Counted from the first letter of the stretch, positions 16,401-30,298 are shown. The stretch: 34,735 nt of DNA from Promethearchaeota archaeon (GCA_048939905.1 JBHLPB010000001.1:1-34735), one strand, 5' to 3'. Notes: a model not told the origin generated them from the sequence alone. Numbers and translations are program-made.

Positions 16401-19400
16401 CTAACCAGTGGCGGCTGTGACGGAGAGGTATTCCGAGAAGTCATAGAGTTTGACGTTCTCTGGCATCACCATATCTTCCTCCAAGTATTCCGCAGCAGTC
16501 AACACACCGATTATTCGGGTTGACTTGCATGTTCTGCATGCCACCTCGCTATGAATATGGAGCAGGGTATTCAGCTGTTGTTGGTTTGGGAATATAACAT
16601 ACGAAACATCATTGTAGCACAGATCAAAGTATCCGTGACTCCGTTCGACTTCATTTCCTTGTCTACTAAGATCCTTCTCTAGAGCACCTATGACTGAATC
16701 CTTGAACTCTTTCAACATGGCAGAATTGACAATCCAAAGCCCTTCATGGAGTTTCACAAATCTAGGCTTCTCACCTACACGAAGAGCTATGAGGACCTCA
16801 TCGGCCAGCAATTCTGTCAGTGCGCGTTTCCCTTCTTCAACACCGAGTGGAGTTGAGTTCCCCTTGACGGACTGCATTGCAGTTGTTTCAATGAACTCCA
16901 ACAGGACGTCCCACTGTATCTTGCCATCTGACAAATCAACAAAATCTTGGATTAGCTGAAACCACAGACGCATCTGAATAGCACGATTCGTTGCTGATCC
17001 AATATCATGCATCGCTCCAATCAAACCTACCTGTTCAGCCTTGGGAATGTCATCGCCGAGTTTTGCCTGTTCAGATGATGCGGTCGATTCAGTACCTGAT
17101 AGCACCCGCGGAAACAGATTTTCAATCATTGTGTCCAGTGAGCTCGGAAAGGCCGATATGACTGTCACGGGATTGAAGTCCTCCGACCCACTCATTATCT
17201 CCCTCAGCTTCGCAGCTACCACACTTCCTCTCACAATCAGTATAAGCTCAGCTACATTGTTACCTAGGCTTGTCATATATTCGCGAGTCTTGTCAAGCAT
17301 TAATCCCATAGATGATGCTTTCACGTGTTCTGGCAATATCAGAATCGCTTTGTCTTCAATCAGAATCCCAGATCCATCATCTATGTCTTCCTCTCGACTG
17401 ATTCCGAAAAGCTCCAGTTTGTCCATGATATAGCCAGCAATTGCATCTCTTACTGCCCGCAGGCCCCGACCTGGTAATGTGAACACAAAACCTCCGGGAA
17501 CTAGGGAAAGGGCTTCTCTATCAACAGTTCCCAAGGACACCAGATCTCGAATAACCTCATGGATATCTTCTTCTTCCATTCTAGAATCAATCGACCCCAG
17601 AAGCCCTTGTATCTCAATTTGGGTGGCAGAGTCTCTTGATGCAAGAAACGCTACGACATGCGACCCTAGTTCTCCCAATCTGTCAAAGACTGAACTTGCA
17701 TCCCCCTCCGAATCTGCTTCTTCCGATACAACAACAGCCGTATCTTCATAATGTGGTCGTTCCGGCAAGTCAAGTGACTCTCTAGTCAGTGCCTTCTTGC
17801 GTGATTCTGGAGCAAAGGGCCAAGTAGCTAGTTCAAAGGTTTCAATGCCAGGCATGACGATAAGCGCTCTCCCACGCTTCATTGTTCTCAGATACTTCTC
17901 CTGACTATTGTCGAGGGACATGAATCTCGCACCCACGATGCTATCATATGGGAGACGAAATGTCACCTTTGTAGCAGTATTCGCAAGTATGTTGGAAGAA
18001 ACGTTGGGTCTTGTCGAAACAACTATGACTCCCTGCCCAGTTGCTCTCTGAAGCATAACCATTGACTCACCTGTAGTCACATCTGCGGCAGAATGTCTAG
18101 CATAGCTCTCTGGTACAAGATTGCTGGCTTCTTCGAGAACAACCACATGATGGAGACCATCTCTGATGCCTCTTTGAAGTGCGTAGTCGAAGATACGCTT
18201 TGCAATCAAGTTATACAACAGTCTAGCGGCCTCCATGCCGCCTGTTCTTGCAACATGCTGAAGATCAAGAATCACACGCTTGTTCATCAACTCGGAGATC
18301 TTCACTGCATTGGGCCCACCGCCAAGAATCGAACCAAGTGGCTCTCGTGAGAGTATCTCCAGACGATTCGTTACTGCATCACGAGTCATTCCACCAATTC
18401 GATCCTTGCCTGCTAAATCATAGATTGCATCAAGGAGGCTCTGAACCGAGTTTCCTTTCTCCTGCTCCTCTGCAACTCTAAGAACTGCGTTTCGCAAGAG
18501 CTTCTCCATTGCCGGGGATAGTTCTGAGGTGGTTCCTCTCTCAGTAAGCACTTCTCTTAGTATCGCAAATGTCGTATGTGCGTGCCTCTTGAGAGAGTCG
18601 ACCTCGGAATCCATGAAGTCCATCACAAACGATGAGTCGATCCCAGGCCGTAGTACAAGTATCTCTCCATCACATGCGTCCAAGAGGTCTACATAGTCAG
18701 ATCCCTTGATATCAAACACCCACCAAGGTGTCTTTGACTTCCTGCTCAATTCTGCCATAAGGTGTTTGACGAGAGTTGTCTTTCCAGTACCTGTTGCTCC
18801 AAGGACAGCTACATGTTCTCGCAGCCATTCCGTCCTGAGTCCGACAATGTTCAAACGACGCCCACCAAAGACAGCCTGGCCAATCTTCAACTCATTGTCT
18901 ACTAATTCCTTGGCAGGTACTGGGAAGTCGGGAATTTGAGAAGCAGCTATCACAGGCAACTGCTGAACGGGCGTATTCACAAAGGCGACCAACCTACTAA
19001 CATGAATTCTCTGTCGTGTCATGTGCCGACGCAGAAGCATTCGCAAGGCAGTCTTCTTTCTAATTGCCTTTTTCTTCAACCGAATGTTGTCACCGTCACC
19101 CCATATTGAGTGAACTAGTCCGGTAACCCGTTCCTGAATCTCTTGCATGCGTACTGAGGCATCAGACTTCATCAATATGTGGACAGTCGTGTCAAACCAG
19201 CCGGCACTGCTTTGAATCTCTTCATAATGACGTACGAGCTTCCTCTTCCTAGATTGATCAGCTAGTGAGTCCTCTTTCCGTTTCTCTTTCTCACGAATCG
19301 TGCTCCACTGTCTTTCCATTCTCCTCTGCTCTCTTCCTGGCTTTGCTTTCGAGAAAACACAGGAGAAGACCACGTCGCATCCCTGTTTCAATGCTGTAGA

Positions 19401-20174
19401 GATGAATGTACCCACTTGGGAACTCTCTGCCAAGGGCAGAACACGTGGTTCTCCTGTGAGTACCATCAAGCCGTTTCTATCCGTTTCAAAAGAAAGGCCA
19501 GAATCGCCGTCGAACTCGGCATCAATCAGTCTTAGTGACGCTTCTCTGAGGTCCTCACCTTTAAGCTGATGTAGTTCGATGTTATTCAAGGAGGCTAACA
19601 GAATTGCCTCCGTCCGGGTTGCTTCTCTCTTCAACAACTCAGCAATCTCATCTAGAGCCCTTCCCGATGCAGTAATGAAGATACGCAGATAGGGTTCACC
19701 ATTCAAGACGCCCACCTCGTACGTCATATTCACACGTCCATCCATCCCGGCACGCAGTGCAAGCAGGAAACCCGCATCGTATTCTGGACGTTCACTCTCT
19801 CCGATACGGACAGAGCCCGGAACAGATGTGATGTCAAGGCAACACACAGCAACCACGTGCTGATGTAGTCGCAGAACGAGTAAATCGTTGACAATTTCCA
19901 TTAGAGTCTGTTCTGAGAGCAATCTCTGTGTCAGCACGAAGCACCCCGTGGACAGAGGCACTCCACAAACAAAGATCTCCACTATAGACCTGAATGGAAT
20001 CGACACTGAATTCACGAAACCTGCCAGAGGGAGTACATACACAAGAAGGAGATAGAGTGCACAGCACACAGTCCCCAGAATCCAAGTCAATTCTATTCCA
20101 CGCCATAGCCTCGGATGGATTTCCCAATGTGCTTCTTCTCTCATGTCTTCCCTATGCAGATTCTCACTAGACAT
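16401..20174 (-). CDS. giant (1257 aa) membrane-anchored HerA/FtsK-superfamily (DUF87-like) P-loop ATPase with long uncharacterised N- and C-terminal regions
   Basis: ATG start. 2-3 TM helices at aa ~27-82, then ~350 aa of unknown fold with a K/R-rich stretch. HerA-type core: NIVGLRTEWLREHVAVLGATGTGKTT (Walker A, nt 18781-18800), HHVVVLEEAS (Walker B, ~nt 18123-18152), VIVVSTRPNVSSNILANTATKVTFRL (Arg-finger region). The ~470-aa C-terminal extension contains a wHTH-like segment (QIEIQGLL...VIRDLVSLGTVDRE). Confidence 0.8.
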   Translation of the reverse strand: MSSENLHREDMREEAHWEIHPRLWRGIELTWILGTVCCALYLLLVYVLPLAGFVNSVSIPFRSIVEIFVCGVPLSTGCFVLTQRLLSEQTLMEIVNDLLVLRLHQHVVAVCCLDITSVPGSVRIGESERPEYDAGFLLALRAGMDGRVNMTYEVGVLNGEPYLRIFITASGRALDEIAELLKREATRTEAILLASLNNIELHQLKGEDLREASLRLIDAEFDGDSGLSFETDRNGLMVLTGEPRVLPLAESSQVGTFISTALKQGCDVVFSCVFSKAKPGREQRRMERQWSTIREKEKRKEDSLADQSRKRKLVRHYEEIQSSAGWFDTTVHILMKSDASVRMQEIQERVTGLVHSIWGDGDNIRLKKKAIRKKTALRMLLRRHMTRQRIHVSRLVAFVNTPVQQLPVIAASQIPDFPVPAKELVDNELKIGQAVFGGRRLNIVGLRTEWLREHVAVLGATGTGKTTLVKHLMAELSRKSKTPWWVFDIKGSDYVDLLDACDGEILVLRPGIDSSFVMDFMDSEVDSLKRHAHTTFAILREVLTERGTTSELSPAMEKLLRNAVLRVAEEQEKGNSVQSLLDAIYDLAGKDRIGGMTRDAVTNRLEILSREPLGSILGGGPNAVKISELMNKRVILDLQHVARTGGMEAARLLYNLIAKRIFDYALQRGIRDGLHHVVVLEEASNLVPESYARHSAADVTTGESMVMLQRATGQGVIVVSTRPNVSSNILANTATKVTFRLPYDSIVGARFMSLDNSQEKYLRTMKRGRALIVMPGIETFELATWPFAPESRKKALTRESLDLPERPHYEDTAVVVSEEADSEGDASSVFDRLGELGSHVVAFLASRDSATQIEIQGLLGSIDSRMEEEDIHEVIRDLVSLGTVDREALSLVPGGFVFTLPGRGLRAVRDAIAGYIMDKLELFGISREEDIDDGSGILIEDKAILILPEHVKASSMGLMLDKTREYMTSLGNNVAELILIVRGSVVAAKLREIMSGSEDFNPVTVISAFPSSLDTMIENLFPRVLSGTESTASSEQAKLGDDIPKAEQVGLIGAMHDIGSATNRAIQMRLWFQLIQDFVDLSDGKIQWDVLLEFIETTAMQSVKGNSTPLGVEEGKRALTELLADEVLIALRVGEKPRFVKLHEGLWIVNSAMLKEFKDSVIGALEKDLSRQGNEVERSHGYFDLCYNDVSYVIFPNQQQLNTLLHIHSEVACRTCKSTRIIGVLTAAEYLEEDMVMPENVKLYDFSEYLSVTAATG

Positions 20175-20407: not shown

Positions 20408-22405
20408 ATGATGCCCAGCAAGATCATCGAGGTGTTACCCCTGAGGAGGCCTACTCTAGCTGTAATCCTTGTAATTGCGCTGTCAATTGTCTTCTCACTG
20501 ACAAATGCAGAGGATGCAATTGCAGAGGAGGATTCCATTGTACTAAGAGGGAGTCTAGTACCTATCGGTGCAAGACTTCTTCAGAATGGCTCTTACGGAG
20601 AGCCTGTAAGTGGGCAGCGTTTGGATTTCTACGATTGTCTGCTTAACTCGTTCATAGGCTCTTCATTGACAGACAACGATGGCCGCGTCTTGATATACTG
20701 GAATCTCACTTTCAATCACCCACTTGGTCCTACCCTTCTCAATGTGACTTTCCAAGGCAACGATACACTCTCTCTTGCTCCATCGTGTCAGTGGACAACC
20801 GTGACAGTTGTGTCAGCAACGCACATAGACTTAGAATACACCCAACAAATCTACCACCCTGGAGACCAAATCCCAATCTTGGTCGAACTTTTCGATGACC
20901 AACGCGAAGCTATCGCGAACGGATTGATAGCCATCTATCATGATGATGTTCTACTTGCTGCAGACCACACAAATGAAACTGGTCAAGTCATATTCAACAT
21001 AGGCTGTAACACATCTTGGTGCTCTCTAGGCAACAACGAAATCAAAGTGGTCTATGAACCAGCTACGTCGAAACATCACAACAGATCTGAGCATTTCATT
21101 ATGGTTGAAGTACAACAGATTCTAACATCAATCGGATTGCAGGATATGAATGGGACCCAGCTCCAGCTAGACGAGTTCCTATGGTTGAAGTTGAATGTGA
21201 GTGCTGAGGGTGAGGGCCTTCCTAATGCCAATCTGAGTGTTCTCATGGATGAGAACTTCCTTTCCAGTACCACAACTAGTCCATTCGGAGTGACTGAGCA
21301 ACTAGTGCACATTGATTACTTGTCGGGCTTAGGTCCGCATAGAGTAAGAATAGAGTATGGTGGCACAGAGCGTTATACGGCCGCTTATCTTGAAGTAGAC
21401 ATTGTAGTGAAAAGCCCAGCCATGGTTTCCATGATGTTGCCAGACTACACAATCCTTGGAGATGAATCTCAGATACAGCTGGAGGTTCACGATTCACTTG
21501 GTAGACCAATCCCAGGAGTCCACATCGCTATCCATGATGAATCCACGAATGAAACAATTAGCATTCCTGTACCGCTCGGATACACGAACACCGAATTCCA
21601 GTATGTCTTCACAGGCCCAACAGGTATCAGAAATCTAATGGCCACAGTATCAGGGAATCCTTATCTCACAAATACAACCCAACTACTTCCTGTGACTGTT
21701 TGGCTTAAGCCAATCATTTCGATTATCGAAACCAACATTCACGGCTATGCGTCCCCCGGACAAGGACTCTCATTTCGTGTCCAGCTGAACTCGAGCGCAA
21801 GTTGCCTTCCGAATCGACTTATCGAGGCCTGGATAAACGACACAGTTCTACCATCTAGAATCACTGATTCACACGGATTTGCGAACGTAACACTATTCGC
21901 CCCTGAAATCCAAGGTCGGTATGTTCTACTTCTGAAGATAAACGGCAGTTTGCCCTCCTATGAACTTTCATCAGTTCTTGAATATGCTCTCGTTGTGAGC
22001 AGAGTAATGCCTGTGCAGGTTGACCTGATACACTACATAGTCAGTCCGGAACTCAGAGAAGTCCGGGTCTATCTCATGATAAGATGTCTGAATGGCACAG
22101 TATTGGATGGAGTGACACTAAACTACGAATGGCTAGCCATCAGCGGATTCACAGTTGCCACGCAATCCGGTATAGCAGAACTCATTCTTCCCATGCCCCC
22201 AAGTGCGGGTGTCTATAGGTTATACCATTACACAGACGGCACGCAGTACCTTCATCCATCTTCGGGACACACTCTTATCGTGGTGTCTGAAGCAGAATTC
22301 CAAGCGGCACAAGGCATTGGAATACCAGGTCTGGTACTGACTCTCTGTGTTTCAGTCGGTCTTGTCGGCATTCCAGCACTATATCGGAAACACCTGATAA
22401 GCTAG
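20408..22405 (+). CDS. large secreted/anchored surface protein with Ig-like beta-repeat modules, heavily N-glycosylation-sequon-rich
   Basis: 665 aa. N-terminal signal/anchor (PTLAVILVIALSIVFSL). Repeated ~90-100-aa beta-rich modules. I count about 17 N-x-S/T sequons. C-terminus IPGLVLTLCVSVGLVGIPALYRKH is a PGF-CTERM-like tripartite anchor (P-G-L, helix, basic). Confidence 0.7.
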   Translation: MMPSKIIEVLPLRRPTLAVILVIALSIVFSLTNAEDAIAEEDSIVLRGSLVPIGARLLQNGSYGEPVSGQRLDFYDCLLNSFIGSSLTDNDGRVLIYWNLTFNHPLGPTLLNVTFQGNDTLSLAPSCQWTTVTVVSATHIDLEYTQQIYHPGDQIPILVELFDDQREAIANGLIAIYHDDVLLAADHTNETGQVIFNIGCNTSWCSLGNNEIKVVYEPATSKHHNRSEHFIMVEVQQILTSIGLQDMNGTQLQLDEFLWLKLNVSAEGEGLPNANLSVLMDENFLSSTTTSPFGVTEQLVHIDYLSGLGPHRVRIEYGGTERYTAAYLEVDIVVKSPAMVSMMLPDYTILGDESQIQLEVHDSLGRPIPGVHIAIHDESTNETISIPVPLGYTNTEFQYVFTGPTGIRNLMATVSGNPYLTNTTQLLPVTVWLKPIISIIETNIHGYASPGQGLSFRVQLNSSASCLPNRLIEAWINDTVLPSRITDSHGFANVTLFAPEIQGRYVLLLKINGSLPSYELSSVLEYALVVSRVMPVQVDLIHYIVSPELREVRVYLMIRCLNGTVLDGVTLNYEWLAISGFTVATQSGIAELILPMPPSAGVYRLYHYTDGTQYLHPSSGHTLIVVSEAEFQAAQGIGIPGLVLTLCVSVGLVGIPALYRKHLIS

Positions 22406-22416
22406 AGAAGTGAATC

Positions 22417-22527
22417 TGGTGCTCCGGCCGGGATTTGAACCCGGGTCGGGGGATCGAGAGTCCCCCATGCTGGGCCGGACTACACACGGCTACATCACGA
22501 TGATTCTCATGACATATCTACCGGAGC
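22417..22527 (-). tRNA. tRNA-Glu (anticodon CUC), CCA-encoded, with a ~30-35-nt insertion (non-canonical intron candidate) between acceptor stem and D-arm
   Basis: Minus strand reads GCTCCGG-[TAGATATGTCATGAGAATCATCGTGATGTAGCC]-GTGTGTAGTCCGGCCCAGCAT-G-GGGGA-CTCTCGA-TCCCC-CGAC-CCGGG-TTCAAAT-CCCGG-CCGGAGC-A-CCA. Apart from the insertion it matches the archaeal tRNA-Glu body. A second GCTCCGG at 22542-22548 is an alternative 5' end. Confidence 0.8.
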
Positions 22528-22631
22528 TAATGGGAACCAGTCCGGAGCGGGAGTGCTCCCTCAAGACTACAAATAAGGCTTTCCTAAGGACGGCCTTTCT
22601 CAGGCAGTAGACCGGTCATAATCGAATGGCA

Positions 22632-22832
22632 CTAGGGAAACAGATTGGTGAAACTACTCCAACTGTCCTCCAGTAGCTGTAGAAGACTTCCTATGATGTC
22701 TTGTGCCCAACCAGTAGCCTGAAGGATAACTGCGATGACTATAGACACAGTGACCACTGCAAGACCCAAGAGGAGACTCTCTTCCACCAAAGGGCCACCT
22801 GATTCGTCTGCGATGAGGTCTCTCTCGTTCAT
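22632..22832 (-). CDS. Flp/Fap-like type IV prepilin (class III signal peptide)
   Basis: 66 aa from ATG 22832 (the track ORF starts at TTG 22862). MNERDLIADESGG|PLVEESLLLGLAVVTVSIVIAVI parallels the Flp leader ...FLKDESG|ATAIEYGLI..., with Gly at the cleavage site, Glu at mature +5, then a hydrophobic helix. Lies 39 nt downstream of the secretion ATPase. Confidence 0.55.
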   Translation of the reverse strand: MNERDLIADESGGPLVEESLLLGLAVVTVSIVIAVILQATGWAQDIIGSLLQLLEDSWSSFTNLFP

Positions 22833-22901
22833 TGACAGTCGCTCCTGAACTGAAATCCCCAAAACCGTATTTTAAGTGCCCCAAAAAACTGGGACACAGA
22901 C

Positions 22902-24599
22902 CTACATTCCCAGGGACAGCATTGGGTGGCCTTCTCCCCATAAACGGTCACTCAAGGAGGGGCTGGGACCTGCATATGACGAGCTCCTCTCGTGTTCTAG
23001 ACACGTTAGAATTGCCTCATAAGCAGGAACATGACTTTCAAGTCCTATCCGATGTGCATGAAACATGAACGCACCATCCTGCGCCCATCTGACAGATTCA
23101 GGGTTTCGCCAATCGTATAGCGTATTGAGGCCAGAGAACACAAGGAACCCATCGACAACTTCTTTCCGGATCTCAACAATCTGGTTCACTCGCCGATATG
23201 ACTTGCCGGGTATCGGTCTTTCCATTGTGACAATCAAATCTATCAGAGCCACATTTGTCTTCTCTATCCCGTGTCCTGAAGTCCATCGAGCCACGAGGCT
23301 TGCTGCAGAATCACTGTGACATGTCTGCATTACCCTAAGTCCGGCTGCGATAGCTTGGAAGAGTGCTTCACTGTGTTCAGCTGTCTGTATCTCACCGAGA
23401 ACGAGATAGTCAGGGGATCGATGAAGGCTCTTGACTATCTCCGACGTCTTGTCAAACCTGTTGCTAATCTCATCTACGGGGTCGACCCGAATTCGGACTT
23501 GGTGGTGATTTGAGAAGACTCTACTCTCAATCGCATCTTCGATGTATATCTTCCTCCACATTGATGGCGTACTCATATCTAGGGCGTTTAGCAAGGTCGT
23601 CTTTCCTGTACCTGGACCTCCCGTTATGGTTATGTTAAATCTGGAACCGACAGCTAACGCCAAGGCCGCGGCAGCTTTCAACCCAAGCGTTCCATTTAGT
23701 ACAAGATTCATGATCGAGAATGGGGTTTCCTTCGCTCGCCGAATCTCCAGATGCACACCGTCGGGACTTAGTGGCGGCGTACTGATAGCTAGACGCAAAG
23801 CTACGTCGTAGAGTCGGAGATTGGTCTTGAGTGAAGGATTCCTTCTGTCCAGATGTAGGTTGCTTTCAGCTCTTACCAGGGTGGCCAGACGCGCGACGTC
23901 GTTCTTGTCTATGACAATATCAGAAGAACATCTCCCGAAACGCTGATGGTCAAAATAGACTGGAACTCCAGGTCGGTCCACATAGACCTCCTCCACTCCA
24001 TCATCCAACAGAATCGGAAGAAACCGTCCTAACACCGATGTCCGACCAGCTACGACGTTCGCTATTCTCTCTCGCGTAGTTTCGCTTATTTCTGGTAATG
24101 TCTGTACAATTCTAGCTGAAACACACTCAGATACATGCTGAAGTCTTTCTGACAGCTCCATTCTGACACTTGGCATGCCCTCTGTGAGTTTCTGTAGATC
24201 ATCACTGAGCCTGTCCAGCAGTCCAAATTCAAGGGGGCTTCTTACCAAAGGGTGAGTTCTATGGAGGATGCCACTCTCACCAATCCTGTCAAAGAAGAGA
24301 GAGAGATAGGGGCCAATGGTGTAGACATCCATGAGCTTGAGATGCGAATCAAGCAGCTGAGCGTAATCATAGATGAAGACTGTTTCCCAATCGTTTCCTT
24401 TCCATGGTGGCCCAACCGGAACCTGCTCTTCAAGACCCCCCACATGAACCAAGTTCTTTTCTGGCTCTAGCATCACGGCCTTGGACTGATTATCATTCGT
24501 AAGAGAGGCAAGTCTGGAGCATGTGGACAACGAGGAGTCTAGACACTCCTTGCACCTTTCTTCCGGGCATCTGAAAACAACCACGTCACATCTCGACAT
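22902..24599 (-). CDS. type II/IV secretion-system ATPase (PilB/FlaI/TadA/VirB11 family) with N-terminal Cys-rich extension
   Basis: 565 aa with ATG start. EVYVDRPG, GVHLEIRR, Walker A ITITGGPGTGKTTLLNAL, Walker B/Asp box KIYIEDAIE, RSPDYLVLGEIQT, His box GLRVMQTCHS. N-terminus has C-x7-C-x4-C-x2-C. Confidence 0.85.
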   Translation of the reverse strand: MSRCDVVVFRCPEERCKECLDSSLSTCSRLASLTNDNQSKAVMLEPEKNLVHVGGLEEQVPVGPPWKGNDWETVFIYDYAQLLDSHLKLMDVYTIGPYLSLFFDRIGESGILHRTHPLVRSPLEFGLLDRLSDDLQKLTEGMPSVRMELSERLQHVSECVSARIVQTLPEISETTRERIANVVAGRTSVLGRFLPILLDDGVEEVYVDRPGVPVYFDHQRFGRCSSDIVIDKNDVARLATLVRAESNLHLDRRNPSLKTNLRLYDVALRLAISTPPLSPDGVHLEIRRAKETPFSIMNLVLNGTLGLKAAAALALAVGSRFNITITGGPGTGKTTLLNALDMSTPSMWRKIYIEDAIESRVFSNHHQVRIRVDPVDEISNRFDKTSEIVKSLHRSPDYLVLGEIQTAEHSEALFQAIAAGLRVMQTCHSDSAASLVARWTSGHGIEKTNVALIDLIVTMERPIPGKSYRRVNQIVEIRKEVVDGFLVFSGLNTLYDWRNPESVRWAQDGAFMFHAHRIGLESHVPAYEAILTCLEHERSSSYAGPSPSLSDRLWGEGHPMLSLGM

Positions 24600-24650
24600 T
24601 TTCTCTCAGCTCAGACAGATGACACATAGTGGGTCAGTCAAGAACTATAC

Positions 24651-25691
24651 CTAAGTATGCTCAGTGAGTACAACAATCTCCCTCTTCATCATCCCAAAGT
24701 GATCACGGATACTGTACTCCGCTACCTTCGTCGCATCGGATGTAAGCTTCTGAGTGAGTACTGAGCGTTTTCCGTGCTCATCTGCAATCAATCGGTCACT
24801 AGCATAAGCCGCAGAAACTGTGAATATGAATGGATTCCGACCGCCTCTTCTCGAGGCCGGTATGATTCCAAGAATCTCAAGCATCTTGTCCCTTAGTGCG
24901 TTCTCATAGGTTCTCAAGTCCCAACCCCGAGCCCGTATCTTTCTTACGACTTTGTCGCTATTCATCAACATCGAGAGAACTCTTGGTACATAGTCCTCCG
25001 GACGACGAATCTGAGGAGCAATGCCTGTCAGTGATTTGAGCTTCAATGCTTCTCTGACTATAGCTCTGACATTCACCCGATGGCCGCACTTCTCGAATGT
25101 ACTAGCTATCTCATCCAGCGTTATCGGTGCACCATCTTTGTACTCACGAACAGCCATAAGCAGACATACTGCAATGAGTAGGATGTTGTTCGTAATCTTA
25201 GTGGACGCTTCCGTGACTATCTTCTTGTAGAGGTATGCAGTACGATCACGCACTTGTTCACTCAACATCAACAACTTCGAAACATGATTGAGCGTTCGGA
25301 GAGCCCTGTATTTTGCCTCGTTTCTACCTATTCTTATTCGTGTACTATAGACCGCTTTTAGACGCTTGAATCTCTTTTGCGATCTCGCTGATAGAGTCTG
25401 CCCCTGTGCATCCTGAAAGTACTTCTCTTTGTGAAAACCAATGTAGCTTCCAAGTCCATCCACGATGTGCATCCGATTACCCAAGGAAACATAGACAGTT
25501 GCATCAGGCTTGTCACTGTGCCGTTCCTCGCCCATTTGATAAGTGGGCAGGACATACTCTCTGGAAATGGCCAGTCCGCACTCTGCACAGACTATGTACC
25601 CCTGGTTCACCACTAGCAGTCCTGAACAGTCAGGACAAGACCACGATGAGCTCTGAATAGCCTCGAATGTTTCATCAATCAAAGACCACAC
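24651..25691 (-). CDS. tfb: transcription initiation factor B (TFIIB-like), divergent paralog
   Basis: 346 aa with GTG start. N-terminal Zn ribbon CPDCSG...CAECG followed by two cyclin-like helical repeats (AKYRALRTLNHVSKLL...; PEDYVPRVLSML...). Ends 51 nt upstream of the ATPase gene on the same strand. Confidence 0.8.
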   Translation of the reverse strand: MWSLIDETFEAIQSSSWSCPDCSGLLVVNQGYIVCAECGLAISREYVLPTYQMGEERHSDKPDATVYVSLGNRMHIVDGLGSYIGFHKEKYFQDAQGQTLSARSQKRFKRLKAVYSTRIRIGRNEAKYRALRTLNHVSKLLMLSEQVRDRTAYLYKKIVTEASTKITNNILLIAVCLLMAVREYKDGAPITLDEIASTFEKCGHRVNVRAIVREALKLKSLTGIAPQIRRPEDYVPRVLSMLMNSDKVVRKIRARGWDLRTYENALRDKMLEILGIIPASRRGGRNPFIFTVSAAYASDRLIADEHGKRSVLTQKLTSDATKVAEYSIRDHFGMMKREIVVLTEHT

Positions 25692-25744
25692 CCAAAGACA
25701 ACGTGCACATTATCGCTAACTAGATTTCAGGCAGGTGCCAGTAC

Positions 25745-25758
25745 GTTTCCTAGGAAAC
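25745..25758. promoter_or_regulatory. perfect 14-bp palindrome GTTTCCTAGGAAAC in the tfb / membrane-protein divergent intergenic region
   Basis: Self-complementary 14-mer, 54 nt upstream of the tfb start. A second inverted repeat, GTCACCG-n8-CGGTGAC, lies at 25828-25849. Confidence 0.35.
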
Positions 25759-25927
25759 AATGTTCGCTGAAATGGACTCTTGATATCTCACAGTCGACGA
25801 TTCTGGCCCTGACTGACAGAAAGAGGGGTCACCGTAACTATTCGGTGACAATCACTGGAGATGACCAATCCTACCCTCTTAGGTTACGATTTTAAGTATG
25901 AGATGAAGGAAACAGACCGATACTACC

Positions 25928-26899
25928 ATGAACAAATACGCGATTGCTTTGATTGTCCTTGCCTGCGTGACTTCTATGGTAAGATTCGGTCACGTCTATC
26001 CTGATAGCTATGCCTATCTCAGCTATATCGACTATTTCGATGGTATCGGAAGTCTCGAAGACGTTTCTACTCCCTTCGCACTAAGACCTGTAATGCCCGT
26101 GGTGGTGTCACTACTAAATGGAGTACTGGACTCTTTCCTAATACTCTCTACTCTGAATCTTGGTTTCGTGTGCCTAATCAGTCTTGGAATGTTCAGGTAC
26201 GTGAAGAACTACCACCTAGATGAAAGGTCGGCCTTTTTGGCAGCGGCCATTTGCACCGTGTCATTCCCAGTTGCTTACTATGGTGCTGTGCCCCTAGTAG
26301 ACGCACTCGCCGTTCTCATAATGCTGCTGGTTGTCATAGGACAAATCGAAGGGAAGAGTGACTGGTTTGCTATGACCTTGCTTCTTTTTGGAGTCATTGT
26401 GAAGGAAGTGGTTCTTTTCATAGGGCTGTACTATGTGCTGAGGGAAATTGACGATTCAAGATTGGAGTCTGACCTTAAGACGGCTTTCTTGGTAGGAGTC
26501 AAGAAACTCTGGATAGTCGTACCAGCTTCGACACTTCACCTGGCCCTCAGGTTTCTGATATTTGGTGGGCTGGCAAATTCGCTTCATTTCCATCTTGGCA
26601 TCTTTGAATCATCATTGAGATTGATTCAGGTTGCAGGAGGTATAGGAATAACGTTTGTTCTGCCGATGACGATCCTCCTGATTACATTCAGAAGAGAGAA
26701 ATGCCAATCTTGGGGAACAGCAAAGAGGGACGCTCTGCTAGGATTCGTATCACTACTTCCCTTGGCCCTTCTGGGTCTGTTCTTCGCCTATTTCGATGCA
26801 CGATTCATATGGCCTCTCTATCTTCCACTGATACCAACAGTCGGCTGTTCAATCAGTATCCTGACTGGTTTGACCAGTCAGGATGAACCTATCATATAA
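25928..26899 (+). CDS. polytopic membrane protein (~9-10 TM), possibly GT-C-type glycosyltransferase-like
   Basis: 323 aa with ATG start, hydrophobic throughout. The first extracytoplasmic loop YPDSYAYLSYIDYFDG...PFALRPVMPVVV resembles the acidic D-x-Y loop plus Pro-rich TM2 entry of GT-C enzymes. The function call is weak. Confidence 0.6.
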   Translation: MNKYAIALIVLACVTSMVRFGHVYPDSYAYLSYIDYFDGIGSLEDVSTPFALRPVMPVVVSLLNGVLDSFLILSTLNLGFVCLISLGMFRYVKNYHLDERSAFLAAAICTVSFPVAYYGAVPLVDALAVLIMLLVVIGQIEGKSDWFAMTLLLFGVIVKEVVLFIGLYYVLREIDDSRLESDLKTAFLVGVKKLWIVVPASTLHLALRFLIFGGLANSLHFHLGIFESSLRLIQVAGGIGITFVLPMTILLITFRREKCQSWGTAKRDALLGFVSLLPLALLGLFFAYFDARFIWPLYLPLIPTVGCSISILTGLTSQDEPII

Positions 26900-27257
26900 T
26901 CGCTAGAAGGAACTTATCCGAGTCGAATGTCTTCCTCTGAGATGCGGCTGGCTTGCTGATTGTAAGAACCAGTCTTAGGCCTCCAATCGCACCAACGACT
27001 TCCAGACCCGCATCCTCCTTGATGCGGAATACCTTTCCTTCCGCATACAGCTTCGCATTTGGGCCTCTTGTAATTGGCTTGGAGTCTATCACTATGGTGA
27101 CTTCATCCTTGGGACTCATTGTGTCACAAAGGACTTCTGGAAGCTCCAAAACTACTCTGGCCCCCTCCTCCTTGCTGACCATGTTCAAGACTTTCAGTTT
27201 CCTAGTTTCAGTGTCCTCAATGGACTCGATTATGGTATTCTTTAGCCTGACCACCAT
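26892..27257 (-). CDS. rpo8: RNA polymerase subunit Rpo8 (Rpb8/RpoG-like), tentative
   Basis: 121 aa from ATG 27257; the ORF is open to 27374, but that start would overlap the neighbouring gene. By-eye collinearity with yeast Rpb8: VVLELPEVL..DEVTIVIDS vs LTLDINVELFPV..DSLTVTIAS; LYAEGKVFRI..EVVGAIGGLRLVL...DKFLLAI vs VMYGTAYKFEE..AVYYSFGGLLMRL...NAYLLIR. Confidence 0.45.
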   Translation of the reverse strand: MVVRLKNTIIESIEDTETRKLKVLNMVSKEEGARVVLELPEVLCDTMSPKDEVTIVIDSKPITRGPNAKLYAEGKVFRIKEDAGLEVVGAIGGLRLVLTISKPAASQRKTFDSDKFLLAII

Positions 27258-27329: not shown

Positions 27330-29426
27330 GTGGCGTTTTTTAGGGAATACAAGCACCAAGTTGCGGTGGGCCACTTGGAGAAAAGACCGCTGATTGCACT
27401 CATTGCCTCGGTTTCTGTTCTACTGTGCCTAGTCACACCCGTATGCGCATACTATTTCGAGTTTGACTACTTCGAACCGGACAAGCTAGTGTATGAGGTC
27501 GGAGAAACAATCAATATGGTCGCTAGGTTGACAGCAGATTTCAGCTCTCAAGGATGGTGCTACGTTTCCTTTGCTGTTACAACCGATCAAGGTCCAGTGT
27601 CTGACGATAGCTACTTCATTCCTTCATCCACCGAAGCGCAGTTCTTCAACTCATCCTACACAATAGTACCTGAGGACACCTCTCCTGGTCCTGGAGGCAC
27701 AGAGGCATACGTCATATTCACTGTTGAAATATATGACTCATACTCGCAGGGAAACGGCGATACGGTCCAGATAAACATCACAAGAGGATCTCTAGAAGTG
27801 AGTTCACTTTCACCGTTAAGCTTAGAATCCGGTGATAATACGACTCTGGTCTTCAAGATCGCCTCTACACATAATGACACTATTACATACGCGGATTCAC
27901 CCGTAACAGTTACACTACTCGATTCCTTCATGGTTCAGCTGTTCCAGGAACAGACCACAACCTCTTCAGATGGTATGGTTGATTTCAACTGGAATTCTTC
28001 AATGACACCTCCAGGGGATTACACCCTAGCGCTATCAAGCAATGGAACCGAGGATTTTCTTCCCTTCTCAGAGTCATTTCCGGTCACGGTGACACAACCT
28101 TCTTCCAACCTGACAGTGGTTGCCGCGCCGGTTTCGGTACATTGTCAGACTCCAGACGGGGCTCAAGTGGAATTCGTTGACATTTCTGCAGAGCAGCGAA
28201 ATAGAGAAGGAGTACCCATAACCGATAGCACAATCCTGTGGGAAACTGCTTTCTCGGCAGGTACCATGATTCACATCGGAAGTGGAATCTATCATGTATC
28301 CATCCCATTTGAAACAGAACCTGGACTTTCTCATGTCAACCTCACTGCAAACAATCCCCTGTACATGACCGAGTATGAAGGCATTGCAATCCAAGTCCTA
28401 CCTCGGCCTGTACAAATTACGTCAACAGAATCGGGCTGGGATGCACAACGTGGAGGTAACGTATCCATTGCTTTGGATGTGAATTCCGAGTGGTTACTCA
28501 ACCAGTCTATTCCGATACTGCTCAGAGATTCAGAAGGACAACTCGACACGTACACTTCAGTCAATGCCAACACACAGTCTGAGATTCTCCTCAGTATTGA
28601 GCAAGGCGCTTCTCTTGGTCTACACACAGTTACAGTTGAGATTGAAGACACGTCGTATCAGCCTACGGAACCCTCCAGTTTCGAGGTGTTTGTATACGGC
28701 ACAATCAGTGTCCAAATGGATATGGCGGTGGCGTATTATGCAGAAGAACTCGGCATAGCCCTGAATATAACAGATGACAACAGTCAGTCTGTGATCATGA
28801 CCAACCTCAGTCTATGGGTTGATAATCTGACGGTTCCTGTAGCCTATGTCGAGAACGTAGGCGTCTTATCTCCTGTGGAAGTCCTCCTGCCAAGTTCGGT
28901 TTCTCCAGGCTTGCATGACATGGTAGTGGATGTGGAGAGTACTTGGTGTGGAAGGGCCAATATATCAGTGCCAGTAGTGGTCTGGATGCGCACCAGCATT
29001 CTCGTCGTTGTGGGAGATGACTATGAGTCGCCGCAGATGTTAGAATCCAACCAACTCCCGTCGAATATTCAGACAGAACCAGTGATTCTCTCGACGATTT
29101 CCCTTGGTTCTATCATCCGTCCGCCTCCAATCTTAGTCAGCGATACAACATCCACCAAATTACCCACGGCCCGCGAAACTTCCCGAGAGAGCTGGCCCAG
29201 ACTCAGTTCAGGTACCAGCAAAGACTCGACGGACCCCGCGAACTCTGCCAGCTCAGCATCAGGGAAAGGCCAGAGCGTTCTCAACCTGAGGGACCTGATT
29301 TTCACAGAACTGTTTGTCATGACTTCCTCAACGGACCTGGACGTACACCCGTACGAAACGACTCCCCAATCTGCTGATTCCGGTCCAGACACCACTACGT
29401 CAGTCAGGAGCTCTCGTTCATTCTGA
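27330..29426 (+). CDS. large secreted surface protein with Ig-like beta-repeat modules, sequon-rich; 3' ~358 nt overlaps korA antisense
   Basis: 698 aa from GTG 27330. TTG 27375 gives a cleaner signal peptide, MEKRPLIALIASVSVLLCLVTPVCA|YY. I count about 14 N-x-S/T sequons. No C-terminal TM anchor. The last ~120 codons are S/T/P-rich and lie antisense to korA. Confidence 0.65.
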   Translation: MAFFREYKHQVAVGHLEKRPLIALIASVSVLLCLVTPVCAYYFEFDYFEPDKLVYEVGETINMVARLTADFSSQGWCYVSFAVTTDQGPVSDDSYFIPSSTEAQFFNSSYTIVPEDTSPGPGGTEAYVIFTVEIYDSYSQGNGDTVQINITRGSLEVSSLSPLSLESGDNTTLVFKIASTHNDTITYADSPVTVTLLDSFMVQLFQEQTTTSSDGMVDFNWNSSMTPPGDYTLALSSNGTEDFLPFSESFPVTVTQPSSNLTVVAAPVSVHCQTPDGAQVEFVDISAEQRNREGVPITDSTILWETAFSAGTMIHIGSGIYHVSIPFETEPGLSHVNLTANNPLYMTEYEGIAIQVLPRPVQITSTESGWDAQRGGNVSIALDVNSEWLLNQSIPILLRDSEGQLDTYTSVNANTQSEILLSIEQGASLGLHTVTVEIEDTSYQPTEPSSFEVFVYGTISVQMDMAVAYYAEELGIALNITDDNSQSVIMTNLSLWVDNLTVPVAYVENVGVLSPVEVLLPSSVSPGLHDMVVDVESTWCGRANISVPVVVWMRTSILVVVGDDYESPQMLESNQLPSNIQTEPVILSTISLGSIIRPPPILVSDTTSTKLPTARETSRESWPRLSSGTSKDSTDPANSASSASGKGQSVLNLRDLIFTELFVMTSSTDLDVHPYETTPQSADSGPDTTTSVRSSRSF

Positions 29427-30196: not shown

Positions 30197-30298
30197 CACT
30201 AAACATCTCTCTAGGGAATGCGCGGTGTCCCAAGTTCAAGATAAGGATTGACATTCGACACCACCTAACTATCATTCTGTGGAAGAGAGTAACGATAC

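What the first reader, a model, noticed from the sequence alone, without database searches (positions are those of the whole stretch)
22632..25691. Co-directional TFB paralog, PilB/FlaI/VirB11-type ATPase and Flp-like prepilin, with no platform protein or prepilin peptidase
Three minus-strand genes are separated by 51 and 39-69 nt. The first is a divergent TFIIB-like factor. The second is a 565-aa secretion ATPase with a Cys-rich N-terminal extension. The third is a 66-aa protein whose leader and N-terminus (LIADESGG|PLVEESLLLGLAVVTVSIVIAVI) mirror bacterial Flp/Tad pilins (DESG|ATAIEYGLI): Gly at the cleavage site, Glu at mature position 5, then a hydrophobic helix. Known type IV filament loci pair the ATPase with a PilC/TadBC/FlaJ platform protein, and none is recognisable here. 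A basal transcription factor paralog at the head of such a cluster is also unexpected and may be a dedicated regulator. Tad pili are thought to derive from archaeal Epd-like pili, so an archaeal Flp-like pilin plus ATPase minimal set is of evolutionary interest.
Basis: partly seen in the sequence, partly recalled or inferred. Interest (0 to 1): 0.65.

Follow-up and report, generated by a model that had tools for sequence, protein, structure and literature searches.

The report
TFB-linked Flp-like pilus gene cluster
Three real, strongly conserved genes of a Thorarchaeota (Asgard) chromosome, a transcription-factor-B paralog, a pilus-assembly-type ATPase and a tiny Flp-like membrane protein, belong to a gene cluster shared by most Asgard and TACK archaea, and this copy has lost the membrane 'platform' genes such machines normally need.

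Summary
Three co-directional minus-strand genes with 51 and 39/69 nt gaps encode a divergent TFIIB/TFB homologue, a GspE2/FlaI/CpaF-type ATPase with an N-terminal 4-Cys motif, and a 66-aa single-helix protein. No T2SSF platform or A24 peptidase gene lies in the 34.7-kb window.

The conserved unit is rpo8 (RNA polymerase subunit 8) → TFB paralog → ATPase → [two TadB/TadC-like T2SSF proteins] → Flp-like protein → CedD/HerA-like membrane ATPase. I found it in Asgard lineages and in Thermoproteota.

The small protein carries a family-wide signature, [KR][GA]|SPL[VIL]EEG[LIM]L, with Glu at +5. JGI names some members 'Flp pilin', but no Pfam pilin model matches.

Thorarchaeota, Baldr-type and Atabey-type loci lack the two platform genes that 67-71 of 80 related loci carry. 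The 'minimal set' is therefore probably derived, not ancestral.

A TFIIB homologue plus RPB8 next to such an ATPase was already described for Thermoproteales 'subclade 4D' (Makarova 2016), which was reported to have no pilin.

The best reading is a reduced type-IV-filament-like module under a dedicated TFB paralog. It may be coupled to DNA translocation, by analogy with Sulfolobales TFB3, Ups and CedD. Function is untested.

The parts
26892..27257 (-). rpo8 (RNA polymerase subunit Rpo8/RpoG), 121 aa from the ATG; the mechanical ORF extends to 27374
   Evidence: A profile of 19 homologues matches S. acidocaldarius Rpo8 (7OK0_G, E=1.9e-12, full length) and S. pombe Rpb8 (1.3e-11). 16 of 19 members hit PF16992. 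The gene lies directly upstream of the TFB-like gene in L003, L005, L006 and in 15 non-Thor loci.
24651..25691 (-). Divergent TFB/TFIIB paralog: Zn ribbon, a long linker and two cyclin-like repeats. The exact start codon is uncertain.
   Evidence: Pfam TFIIB 2.9e-6. NCBIfam TFIIB 1.6e-16, far below cutoff. Human TFIIB in PDB, E=0.0025, with a weak second-repeat match at residues 284-333. The Zn-ribbon cysteines and the GRxP...TQ...IR motif of repeat 2 are conserved in 55 family members. In my hand-written flag list for five Thor loci I rated this protein about 75-80% identical between loci, but I did not compute that figure (sequences).
22902..24599 (-). GspE2/FlaI/TadA-type hexameric assembly ATPase with an N-terminal C-x4-C-x2-C-x7-C motif
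   Evidence: Pfam T2SSE 7.8e-22. PDB sequence matches: A. fulgidus GspE2 2OAP 1.2e-26, FlaI 1e-16, CpaF 2e-16, VirB11 only 8e-6. Foldseek on the AF2 model (pLDDT 75.8) gives the same order. The best NCBIfam hit is the TadA family, TIGR03819, 1.1e-28, below cutoff.
22632..22832 (-). 66-aa Flp-like protein: a 12-aa leader (MNERDLIADESG), a predicted cleavage site G12|G13, Glu at +5/+6, a TM helix and a C-terminal amphipathic helix
   Evidence: The first ten mature residues, GPLVEESLLL, are invariant in 99 of 99 Thor-type database proteins, and position -1 is Gly in all of them. The family motif hits exactly once per locus in 42 distant loci. JGI names several members 'Flp pilus assembly pilin Flp', including P0403 at 89% identity. 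The AF2 model is one continuous helix, residues 10-64, pLDDT 87. No Pfam, NCBIfam or PDB pilin match was found.
22867..22882 (-). BRE/TATA-like element GGGGCACTTAAAATAC, about 35-50 nt upstream of the small-ORF ATG
   Evidence: Similar elements occur at the same place in L001, L005 and L006: GGGGCACTTAAAATA, GGGGGGCTTAAATAG and GGGGGCTTTAAAAGG. That this is an own promoter is an inference.
16401..20174 (-). 1257-aa membrane-anchored HerA/FtsK-superfamily ATPase (2 N-terminal TM helices, DUF87 core), a distant relative of CedD
   Evidence: Pfam DUF87 1.5e-14 and TrwB_AAD_bind 5e-4. The best NCBIfam hit is CedD, 4.5e-10. A DUF87 gene is present in all five Thor loci. phmmer finds homologues directly after the Flp-like gene in TACK loci, E 4e-30 to 1e-6, and these match CedD at 1e-73 to 9e-22.
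20408..22405 (+). 665-aa Sec-secreted, sequon-rich Ig-like surface protein with a C-terminal TM anchor; a neighbour conserved only in Thorarchaeota, convergent with the small ORF
   Evidence: Orthologues sit at the same position in L001, L003, L005 and L006. TM segments. Only weak Big_1/CarboxypepD_reg matches. Membership of the system is inferred from synteny alone.
27330..29426 (+). 698-aa Sec-secreted MG2/Ig-like protein, divergent from rpo8; a neighbour conserved only in Thorarchaeota
   Evidence: Orthologues in L001/L002, L003 and L006. Weak MG2 match. Membership is inferred from synteny alone.

Best explanation
The locus is the Thorarchaeota version of an old, vertically conserved archaeal cluster: rpo8, TFB paralog, TadA/FlaI-type ATPase, [TadB-like, TadC-like platform], Flp-like protein, CedD/HerA-like membrane ATPase. 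I propose that it works as a type-IV-filament-type membrane machine.

Proposed steps:
- The 66-aa protein is made from its own promoter and inserted into the membrane.
- Its short leader is removed after Gly12 by an A24 prepilin peptidase encoded elsewhere.
- The mature 54-residue all-helical subunit, with Glu5, is extracted or polymerised by the hexameric ATPase.
- The TFB paralog is the dedicated initiation factor for the module.
- The CedD-like ATPase is a functional partner.

In Thorarchaeota, and in Baldr- and Atabey-type loci, the two T2SSF platform genes are no longer in the locus. The ATPase must then use a platform encoded in trans or another membrane partner.

Shown here: gene identities, the family-wide signature of the small protein, conserved linkage of all components, and presence of T2SSF and A24 genes in homologous loci. 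Inferred: cleavage, filament formation, the regulatory role of the TFB paralog, and the secondary loss of the platform.
For: - ATPase: it groups with filament-assembly ATPases (GspE2, FlaI, CpaF) by sequence and by fold, not with VirB11.
- Small protein: the leader is variable and the region from the predicted cleavage site onward is invariant. Position -1 is G/A, -2 is K/R in most members, and Glu sits at +5. The predicted structure is a single long helix. These are the features of class III signal-peptide or Flp-type subunits. JGI annotates some members as Flp pilin.
- Context in 80 related loci: two 4-5-TM proteins lie between the ATPase and the small gene in 67-71 loci, and 10 of 17 tested hit PF00482 T2SSF, best 1.6e-8.
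- Peptidase_A24 genes and tandem 130-aa single-TM genes are present in some loci.
- The TFB-like gene stays next to the ATPase through several rearrangements, in 50 of 80 loci.
- In the rough ATPase tree, the platform-less clades sit among platform-bearing ones.
- Precedent: Sulfolobales TFB3 activates the ups pilus and ced genes (PMC6101594, PMC6101591).
Against: - No platform or peptidase gene lies in the window or in any Thor, Baldr-type or Atabey-type locus. I could not scan whole genomes for trans-encoded copies, and one search was uninformative.
- The small protein matches no Pfam, NCBIfam or PDB pilin model.
- Thor leaders are short and mostly net-negative (median charge -1, against +5 in other lineages), and the window copy has Ser rather than K/R at -2.
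- The small protein looks more conserved than the ATPase (73-98% against about 50% identity within Thor), and by inspection so does the TFB paralog. Together with the housekeeping chromosomal context next to rpo8, ribosomal genes and cdc6, this is unusual for pili.
- The published view of the related subclade 4D is a repurposed, non-pilus system (PMC4858521; bioRxiv 10.64898/2026.04.22.720090).
Confidence: 0.5

Rival explanations
1. A repurposed, non-filament device tied to transcription. The indivisible unit would be the TFB paralog plus the ATPase, next to rpo8. The ATPase, tethered to the membrane by the small single-pass protein, would control the availability or activity of the TFB paralog. 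Alternatively the pair would act on RNA polymerase directly. No pilus would be made. This is the direction suggested for subclade 4D by Makarova 2016 and by Sivabalasarma and Albers 2026.
For: - The TFB-ATPase pair persists where the platform is absent: Thor, Baldr-type L016-L018 and L055, and Atabey/LC30 L010, L015 and L020.
- In Atabeyarchaeum the Flp-like gene is about 6.7 kb away, behind ribosomal genes.
- rpo8 linkage is conserved in Thor, Odin, Baldr and many TACK loci.
- The small protein is very strongly conserved, and the TFB paralog appears so by inspection.
- The cluster sits in a housekeeping chromosomal context.
Against: - Most family members keep a full filament tool-kit: two T2SSF genes and an Flp-like subunit, in some loci also an A24 peptidase and extra pilin-like genes.
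- Walker and His-box motifs typical of assembly ATPases are intact.
- There is no direct evidence for any ATPase-TFB contact.
- rpo8 adjacency could be inherited synteny, since Bathyarchaeia keep the cluster without rpo8.
Confidence: 0.25
2. One reading: a self-sufficient, ancestral-like minimal Flp pilus of ATPase plus pilin that needs no platform protein, with the TFB as an unexpected novel regulator.
For: No platform or peptidase gene was found in five Thor loci or in the 34.7-kb window. The same reduced set recurs in Baldr- and Atabey-type loci.
Against: - 67-71 of 80 related loci have the platform pair, so the reduced state is most simply derived.
- To my knowledge, no characterised type IV filament works without a PilC/TadBC/FlaJ protein.
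- TFIIB association was already reported (PMC4858521).
- Whole genomes were not scanned.
Confidence: 0.1
3. Unrelated neighbours: the small ORF is spurious, or the adjacency is accidental.
For: The small ORF has no database domain. Overlapping alternative ORFs exist.
Against: - 620 database homologues at E<=0.001.
- An invariant mature N-terminus in 99 Thor sequences.
- One motif hit per locus in 42 distant loci, always near the ATPase.
- Synteny conserved across two archaeal superphyla.
Confidence: 0.02

Closest known systems
Archaeal T4P 'subclade/subsystem 4D' of Thermoproteales (Makarova, Koonin, Albers 2016, PMC4858521; Sivabalasarma and Albers 2026 preprint)
   Same: A secretion-type ATPase with an extra small N-terminal Cys-rich domain. 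A TFIIB homologue in the same predicted operon. The RPB8/rpo8 gene adjacent. 4-5-TM membrane proteins suspected to be diverged TadC (present in the relatives of this locus). Function unknown.
   Different: 4D was described only for Pyrobaculum/Thermoproteus and as having no pilin or secreted component. Here the cluster is found across Asgard and many Thermoproteota lineages. It carries a conserved Flp-like small protein and often a CedD-like ATPase. The Thor copy lacks the membrane proteins altogether. Orthology to arCOG05558 and arCOG05559 could not be tested with these tools.
Bacterial Tad/Flp pilus (CpaF/TadA, TadB, TadC, Flp, TadV) and archaeal Epd pili
   Same: A TadA/CpaF-like ATPase. 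Two separate short T2SSF proteins in the relatives. A 55-90-aa subunit with a short leader, Gly/Ala at -1, Glu at +5, Gly at +7 in most lineages, and an all-helical mature part. The gene order ATPase, TadB, TadC in the relatives.
   Different: No match to Pfam Flp_Fap or Class_IIIsignal. EE replaces EY at +5/+6. No TadV, TadZ, secretin or minor pilin in the window. The platform genes are absent in Thor. The link to a TFB paralog, rpo8 and a CedD-like ATPase is not a Tad feature.
Sulfolobales TFB3-Ups-Ced DNA-exchange regulon
   Same: A TFB paralog dedicated to a type IV pilus and to HerA/VirB4-like membrane ATPases. CedD is essential for DNA import (PMC11868833, PMC11823120). By locus tags, tfb3 (saci_0665, SiRe_1717) lies two genes from cedD (saci_0667, SiRe_1715) (PMC5817253, PMC7515695, PMC11823120, PMC11868833). 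This echoes the TFB-like ... CedD-like ends of the cluster described here.
   Different: TFB3 is truncated, with no B-finger and no HTH (PMC6101591). The protein here has a Zn ribbon plus two cyclin-like repeats. Ups pilins and UpsE/F are a different T4P clade encoded elsewhere. The Thor HerA-like protein is only distantly CedD-like (38.8 bits). No DNA-damage or DNA-transfer data exist for Asgard.
A. fulgidus GspE2 (PDB 2OAP) and FlaI (4II7/4IHQ)
   Same: The closest solved structures by sequence and by fold. The N-terminal domain plus RecA-like C-terminal domain architecture is shared.
   Different: Only about 20% identity. The extra N-terminal Cys4 module is not in those structures.

Membership tests
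Type IV filament (TFF) system | PilB/FlaI/TadA-family assembly ATPase | tested here: met
   PF00437 7.8e-22. 2OAP 1.2e-26, FlaI and CpaF about 1e-16. Foldseek gives the same order.
Type IV filament (TFF) system | Polytopic platform protein (PilC/TadB/TadC/FlaJ, T2SSF domain) encoded with the ATPase | tested here: not met
   No T2SSF hit in the window ORFs I scanned. Family-specific HMMs find nothing in the Thor loci. It is present in 67-71 of 80 related loci. Trans-encoded copies were not testable.
Type IV filament (TFF) system | Subunit with a class III signal peptide (short leader, G/A at -1, hydrophobic helix, Glu +5) | tested here: inconclusive
   The motif and architecture are present and conserved across the family. 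No Pfam or PDB pilin match. Thor leaders are acidic. No FlaFind-type predictor was available.
Type IV filament (TFF) system | A24 prepilin peptidase | tested here: not met
   None in the window. Peptidase_A24 was found in related loci L024, L025 (E about 2e-5 to 4e-5, just below cutoff) and L063 (30.1 bits, above cutoff).
Tad/Flp pilus | Flp pilin matching PF04964 / Flp motif G|XXXXEY | tested here: not met
   No PF04964 or PF04021 hit for 18 family members even at E<=10. Glu +5 is kept but +6 is Glu, not Tyr. The JGI name 'Flp pilin' for some members is only an annotation.
Tad/Flp pilus | TadA/CpaF equivalog ATPase | tested here: not met
   TIGR03819 is the best NCBIfam hit, but at 100.5 bits against a cutoff of 373.
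Archaeal T4P subclade 4D | ATPase with an extra N-terminal Cys-rich domain, a TFIIB homologue in the operon and RPB8 adjacent | tested here: met
   against the description in PMC4858521.
Archaeal T4P subclade 4D | Membership of arCOG05558 (ATPase), arCOG05559 (TFIIB) and arCOG05557/13890 (membrane protein) | not testable with these tools
   No arCOG profiles or Pyrobaculum/Thermoproteus sequences were available.
TFB/TFIIB | Zn ribbon plus two cyclin repeats, scoring as TFIIB | tested here: inconclusive
   The ribbon cysteines are conserved. Repeat 1 is found by Pfam. Repeat 2 is seen only as a weak PDB alignment. NCBIfam TFIIB gives 60 bits against a cutoff of 384. It is a homologue but not a canonical TFB.
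Ced system ATPase CedD | TM segment, N-terminal domain and HerA/VirB4-like ATPase, scoring as CedD | tested here: not met
   The window protein scores 38.8 bits against a cutoff of 600, although the architecture is similar. The TACK neighbours score 77-254 bits, which is clearly related but also below cutoff.
RNA polymerase subunit Rpo8/Rpb8 | Full-length similarity to Rpo8/Rpb8 | tested here: met
   A profile against PDB gives 1.9e-12 (7OK0_G) and 1.3e-11 (Rpb8). 16 of 19 members hit PF16992.

The most novel reading that the evidence does not exclude
The cluster is the ancestral, Asgard- and TACK-wide form of the crenarchaeal TFB3/Ups/Ced circuit. In this reading a TFB-paralog-controlled Flp-type pilus is physically coupled to a CedD-type DNA translocase for intercellular DNA exchange or uptake. 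The Sulfolobales tfb3-x-cedD neighbourhood would be its eroded remnant. Thor, Baldr and Atabey lineages would run the ATPase and Flp-like subunit without any canonical T2SSF platform. That would make a pilin-bearing '4D-like' system one of the most conserved surface machines of the lineage from which eukaryotes arose.
Probability: 0.25. Interest if true: 0.85.

Novelty: new variant of a known kind. Interest (0 to 1): 0.62.

Why it matters
Current surveys describe type IV filament systems as scarce or incomplete in Asgard archaea. They describe the TFIIB-linked subclade 4D as a pilin-less curiosity of Pyrobaculum and Thermoproteus. The data here point to a single cluster, vertically conserved across Asgard and Thermoproteota, that does carry a conserved Flp-like subunit and often a CedD-like DNA translocase. 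It is welded to a TFB paralog and sits beside rpo8.

This yields several testable questions:
- How does a basal-factor paralog come to be dedicated to a membrane machine?
- Do Asgard archaea exchange DNA by a Ups/Ced-like route?
- Can a TadA-type ATPase work without a T2SSF platform? The Thor, Baldr and Atabey variants bear on this.

It also gives bacterial Tad/Flp evolution a broader archaeal reference set than Epd pili alone.

Tried and rejected
- Pfam and NCBIfam scans of the small protein and 17 relatives for Flp_Fap or Class_IIIsignal found no hits.
- A profile of the small-protein family against PDB sequences returned only coiled-coil noise.
- Foldseek with its single-helix model returned no matches.
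- I searched the 5.8-billion-protein set with a platform-protein alignment to find Thor-encoded T2SSF proteins. Only 17 close relatives of the first query were returned, so the result is uninformative.
- I looked up the names of 20 ATPase cluster representatives to find a second, platform-linked paralog in Thorarchaeota. None was labelled Thor, which is weak evidence only.
- I tested the 323-aa 9-TM ORF (25928-26899, +) as a candidate platform or peptidase. It has no Pfam hit, no GxGD motif and no match to the platform HMMs, and it is present only in the closest relative. I rejected it as part of the system.
- A VirB11/T4SS reading of the ATPase is rejected: VirB11 scores far below GspE2, FlaI and CpaF.
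- A VirB2/CedA1-like (two-helix hairpin) reading of the small protein is rejected: the model is one continuous helix, and the context is T2SSE, T2SSF and A24.
- A conserved RNA structure upstream of the TFB-like gene is not supported.
- I could not predict the TFB-paralog structure with an alignment, because locus-derived sequences are not accepted by that tool.


Full report
**1. Observation**

The window is a chromosomal stretch of a Thorarchaeota/Sifarchaeia-type Asgard archaeon. Flanking genes encode ribosomal protein S10, Cdc6, RFC, pyruvate/2-oxoacid:ferredoxin oxidoreductase and GlmS. The best protein hits are named Thorarchaeota, Sifarchaeia or Promethearchaeota.

The three minus-strand ORFs are exactly where the finding says:
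- 24651-25691, 346 aa.
- 22902-24599, 565 aa.
- 22632-22862, 76 aa from TTG, or 66 aa from the ATG at 22832.

The gaps are 51 nt and 39/69 nt.

Domain evidence for the three proteins:
- First protein: Pfam gives one TFIIB repeat (2.9e-6) and a weak Zn ribbon. NCBIfam TFIIB aligns residues 13-251 at 60 bits, against a cutoff of 384. Human TFIIB in PDB scores E=0.0025, with a weak second-repeat alignment. It is a genuine but very divergent TFB homologue, not a canonical TFB.
- Second protein: Pfam gives T2SSE at 7.8e-22.
- ATPase N-terminus: it carries a C-x4-C-x2-C-x7-C motif that is invariant in 12 homologues.

None of the ORFs of at least 100 aa that I scanned matches T2SSF or Peptidase_A24.

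**2. The three genes are a conserved unit, and the unit is larger**

Four other Thorarchaeota loci have ATPases only 47-67% identical to the window's. All share this arrangement:
- a large secreted Ig-like protein, divergent;
- then a 120-130-aa protein → TFB-like → ATPase → 66-69-aa ORF;
- then a convergent ~650-aa Ig-like surface protein;
- and a ~1250-aa DUF87/HerA-type membrane ATPase nearby.

The 120-aa protein is RNA polymerase subunit Rpo8. A profile of 19 homologues matches S. acidocaldarius Rpo8 (1.9e-12) and fission-yeast Rpb8 (1.3e-11) over the full length. 16 of 19 members hit PF16992.

In the window, a 323-aa 9-TM ORF on the other strand separates rpo8 from the TFB-like gene. It occurs only in the closest relative and matches nothing, so I do not count it as part of the system.

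**3. The ATPase**

By sequence, the closest solved structures are A. fulgidus GspE2 (2OAP, 1.2e-26), FlaI (1e-16) and CpaF (2e-16). VirB11 scores 8e-6. An AlphaFold2 model (pLDDT 75.8) gives the same ranking by Foldseek. The best NCBIfam family is TadA (TIGR03819), below cutoff. The ATPase therefore belongs with filament-assembly ATPases.

An exhaustive profile search found the Thor family (5 representatives above 490 bits) and then 331 representatives at E<=1e-30. Those I looked up came from Odin-, Borr-, Frey-, Ran-, Loki-, Hod-, Heimdall- and Baldrarchaeia.

A scan of one genome per GTDB species gave 358 loci. The best 80 (L007-L086) cover Asgard lineages plus Bathyarchaeia, Nezhaarchaeales, Methanomethylicia, Culexmicrobium, Thermoprotei and 'Nitrososphaerota'-labelled MAGs.

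**4. Neighbourhoods of those 80 loci**

I searched mechanically called ORFs with HMMs built from the Thor proteins. Counts out of 80:

| Component | Loci | Notes |
|---|---|---|
| TFB-like gene near the ATPase | 50 | Usually immediately upstream; stays nearby through inversions and translocations |
| First 4-5-TM protein after the ATPase | 71 | 10 of 17 tested match PF00482 T2SSF, best 1.6e-8, full domain coverage |
| Second 4-5-TM protein after the ATPase | 67 | Together with the first, a divergent TadB/TadC-like platform pair; fused into one ~505-aa protein in Loki/Hel-type loci |
| Small-ORF homologue | 42 (strict motif) to 50 (iterated HMM) | The strict motif hits exactly once per locus |
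| Rpo8 | 15 | |
| HerA-like ATPase | 17 | In TACK loci, directly after the small gene |

Additional findings:
- The HerA-like proteins in TACK loci match the NCBIfam model for CedD, the DNA-translocating ATPase of the Sulfolobales Ced system. E-values run from 1e-73 to 9e-22, at 77-254 bits against a cutoff of 600.
- Peptidase_A24 genes and four tandem ~130-aa single-TM genes occur in some Bathyarchaeia, Thermoprotei and Loki loci.
- A MinD/ParA-like gene occurs in one Odin locus.

The consensus cluster is therefore rpo8, TFB paralog, TadA-like ATPase, TadB-like, TadC-like, Flp-like, CedD-like.

**5. The small protein**

Across lineages the alignment shows a variable, usually K/R-rich leader. 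It is followed by [KR]-[GA] | S-P-L-[VIL]-E-E-G-[LIM]-L-I-G-L, then a hydrophobic helix and an amphipathic C-terminal helix.

If cleavage follows the G/A, Glu is at +5 and Gly at +7. From memory, this is the pattern of bacterial Flp (G|ATAIEYGLI) and archaeal Epd/class III signal peptides (KG|QxxxELG).

Among 99 Thor-type database sequences:
- position -1 is always Gly;
- position -2 is K/Q/R in 88;
- position -3 is Glu in 92;
- the first ten mature residues, GPLVEESLLL, are invariant;
- the median leader charge is -1, against +5 in other lineages.

The window copy reads DES-G|GPLVEES. The AlphaFold2 model is one continuous helix, residues 10-64, pLDDT 87. JGI annotates several members, including one 89% identical to the window protein, as 'Flp pilus assembly pilin Flp'.

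Against membership: no Pfam Flp_Fap or Class_IIIsignal, NCBIfam or PDB pilin match was obtained for any of 18 members. So 'works like an Flp-type prepilin' is supported by signature, size, fold and context. 'Is a member of Pfam Flp' is not supported.

A BRE/TATA-like element (GGGGCACTTAAAATAC, 22882-22867) lies about 35-50 nt upstream of the ATG in four of five Thor loci. This suggests the gene has its own promoter, as major subunit genes often do.

**6. The missing platform**

The window, the other Thor loci, the Baldr-type loci (L016-L018, L055) and the Atabey/LC30 loci (L010, L015, L020) have no T2SSF gene within 8-10 kb.

In the closed Atabeyarchaeum chromosome, the Flp-like gene lies about 6.7 kb upstream of the TFB-ATPase pair. 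It is separated from the pair by ribosomal protein genes, and again there is no platform.

In a rough neighbour-joining tree of the ATPases, these clades sit among platform-bearing clades. The reduced state is therefore most simply derived.

I could not scan whole genomes. A database search with a platform alignment was too insensitive to be informative. Whether a platform or an A24 peptidase is encoded in trans remains open. This is the main uncertainty about mechanism.

**7. Comparison with the literature**

- Makarova, Koonin and Albers 2016 (PMC4858521) described Thermoproteales subclade 4D. It has an ATPase with an extra N-terminal Cys domain, a 4-5-TM protein 'possibly a highly diverged TadC', a TFIIB homologue in the operon, RPB8 adjacent, and no pilin. 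They suggested a transcription-related function. They also list TFIIB homologues as the commonest regulators in archaeal T4P loci.
- A 2026 preprint (10.64898/2026.04.22.720090) repeats that 4D lacks a pilin and that its TFIIB is specific to Pyrobaculum/Thermoproteus. It states that TFF systems are widespread 'except the Asgardarchaeota', where mostly core components are detected.
- Rpo8 is reported only in Thermoproteota and Asgard, and as absent from Bathyarchaeota (PMC13257274). This fits the rpo8-less Bathyarchaeia loci seen here.

The window is thus best filed as a variant of a known but uncharacterised kind. New here are the phyletic breadth, the conserved Flp-like subunit, the CedD-like partner and the platform-less variants. 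Orthology to the arCOGs of 4D could not be tested.

**8. Functional lead**

In Sulfolobales, the TFB paralog TFB3 activates the ups pilus operon, the ced genes and herA1/cedD after DNA damage (PMC6101594, PMC6101591). CedD is essential for DNA import (PMC11868833, PMC11823120).

By locus tags, tfb3 (saci_0665, SiRe_1717) lies two genes from cedD (saci_0667, SiRe_1715). This mirrors the TFB-like and CedD-like ends of the cluster described here. It makes a TFB-paralog-controlled pilus coupled to DNA translocation a concrete hypothesis. It remains an analogy, for two reasons:
- The Thor HerA-like protein is only distantly CedD-like (38.8 bits).
- TFB3 is truncated, whereas this paralog has a ribbon and two cyclin-like repeats.

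**9. Verdict**

- Best explanation (about 0.5): a reduced type-IV-filament-type module under a dedicated TFB paralog, with the platform lost from the locus.
- Main rival (about 0.25): a repurposed, non-filament TFB-ATPase device, favoured by persistence of the TFB-ATPase pair without a platform and by the housekeeping context.
- Novelty: new variant of a known kind.
- Interest: about 0.6.

**Caveats**
- ORFs were called mechanically.
- Taxon labels are record titles.
- Several HMM matches (T2SSF, A24, CedD, TFIIB) are below curated cutoffs.
- The tree is a midpoint-rooted neighbour-joining tree.
- No expression or protein data exist.

Noticed in passing
window 22400-22530 (-): A probable intron-containing tRNA, about 100 nt downstream of the small ORF. 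The anticodon arm GGGGA-CTCTCGA-TCCCC would give CUC (Glu), and the 3' CCA is encoded. The 5' acceptor strand GCTCCGG is followed by an insert of about 25-33 nt. ARAGORN misses it, and Rfam reports only a partial tRNA hit at 22428-22485 (30.7 bits). Its 5' end and an upstream AAAGCCTTATTTGT box are conserved downstream of the small ORF in all five Thor loci.
   Followed up: partly
window 29069-29426 (both strands): The 698-aa secreted-protein ORF (27330-29426, +) overlaps the convergent POR-alpha gene (29069-30199, -) by 358 nt, so its last ~120 codons are antisense to a conserved enzyme gene. Similar overlaps occur in L001/L002 (355 nt) and L003 (394 nt), but the overlap is only 4 nt in L006.
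   Followed up: no
window 25692-25850 (-), upstream of the TFB-like gene: Conserved sequence blocks (TAGTTTCGG...CTCTTTCTG and CTGAAAnnCAGTTAGG) occur in all five Thor loci within 150 nt upstream of the TFB-like start. RNAalifold finds no convincing structure (-4.2 kcal/mol). They are possibly promoter or operator elements.
   Followed up: partly
window 25928-26899 (+): A 323-aa protein with about 9 TM segments and no family match is inserted between rpo8 and the TFB-like gene. It is present only in the window and its closest relative (L001/L002), and absent from L003, L005 and L006.
   Followed up: partly
L024, L025, L049, L062, L065, L076 (about 4-7 kb in each locus): Bathyarchaeia and Thermoprotei versions carry four tandem ~130-aa single-TM (pilin-like) genes and a larger 1-TM protein on the opposite strand, between the TFB-like gene and the ATPase. 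In L024 and L025 an A24-type peptidase is also present. This contradicts the 'no pilin' picture of 4D-like systems.
   Followed up: partly
L010, L015, L017, L042, L043, L050, L062, L065, L087: The TFB-ATPase pair sits in a conserved housekeeping context in many lineages. In L017, L010 and L087 it lies next to an LSm-like gene (PF14894 in L087) and the ribosomal L3-L4-L23-L2 block. In TACK and Odin loci it lies next to what I read from the sequence as tgtA.
   Followed up: no
L026, L031, L035, L050, L062, L076 (between the TFB-like gene and the ATPase): A further conserved 113-156-aa cytoplasmic protein shares an N-terminal motif (...EIAEAMAxEGxEPxxIKRVLxNLGF...) that looks UBA/RuvA_C-like. One Odin locus also has a MinD/ParA-like ATPase here.
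   Followed up: no
L063-L086 (Loki/Hermod/Hel-type loci): These loci have a ~140-aa single-TM protein directly after the ATPase. In L063 it starts MTNLLEKSLITGFG, with no leader and Glu at position 6, followed by a fused ~505-aa 7-8-TM platform protein. It is possibly a leaderless variant of the subunit.
   Followed up: no
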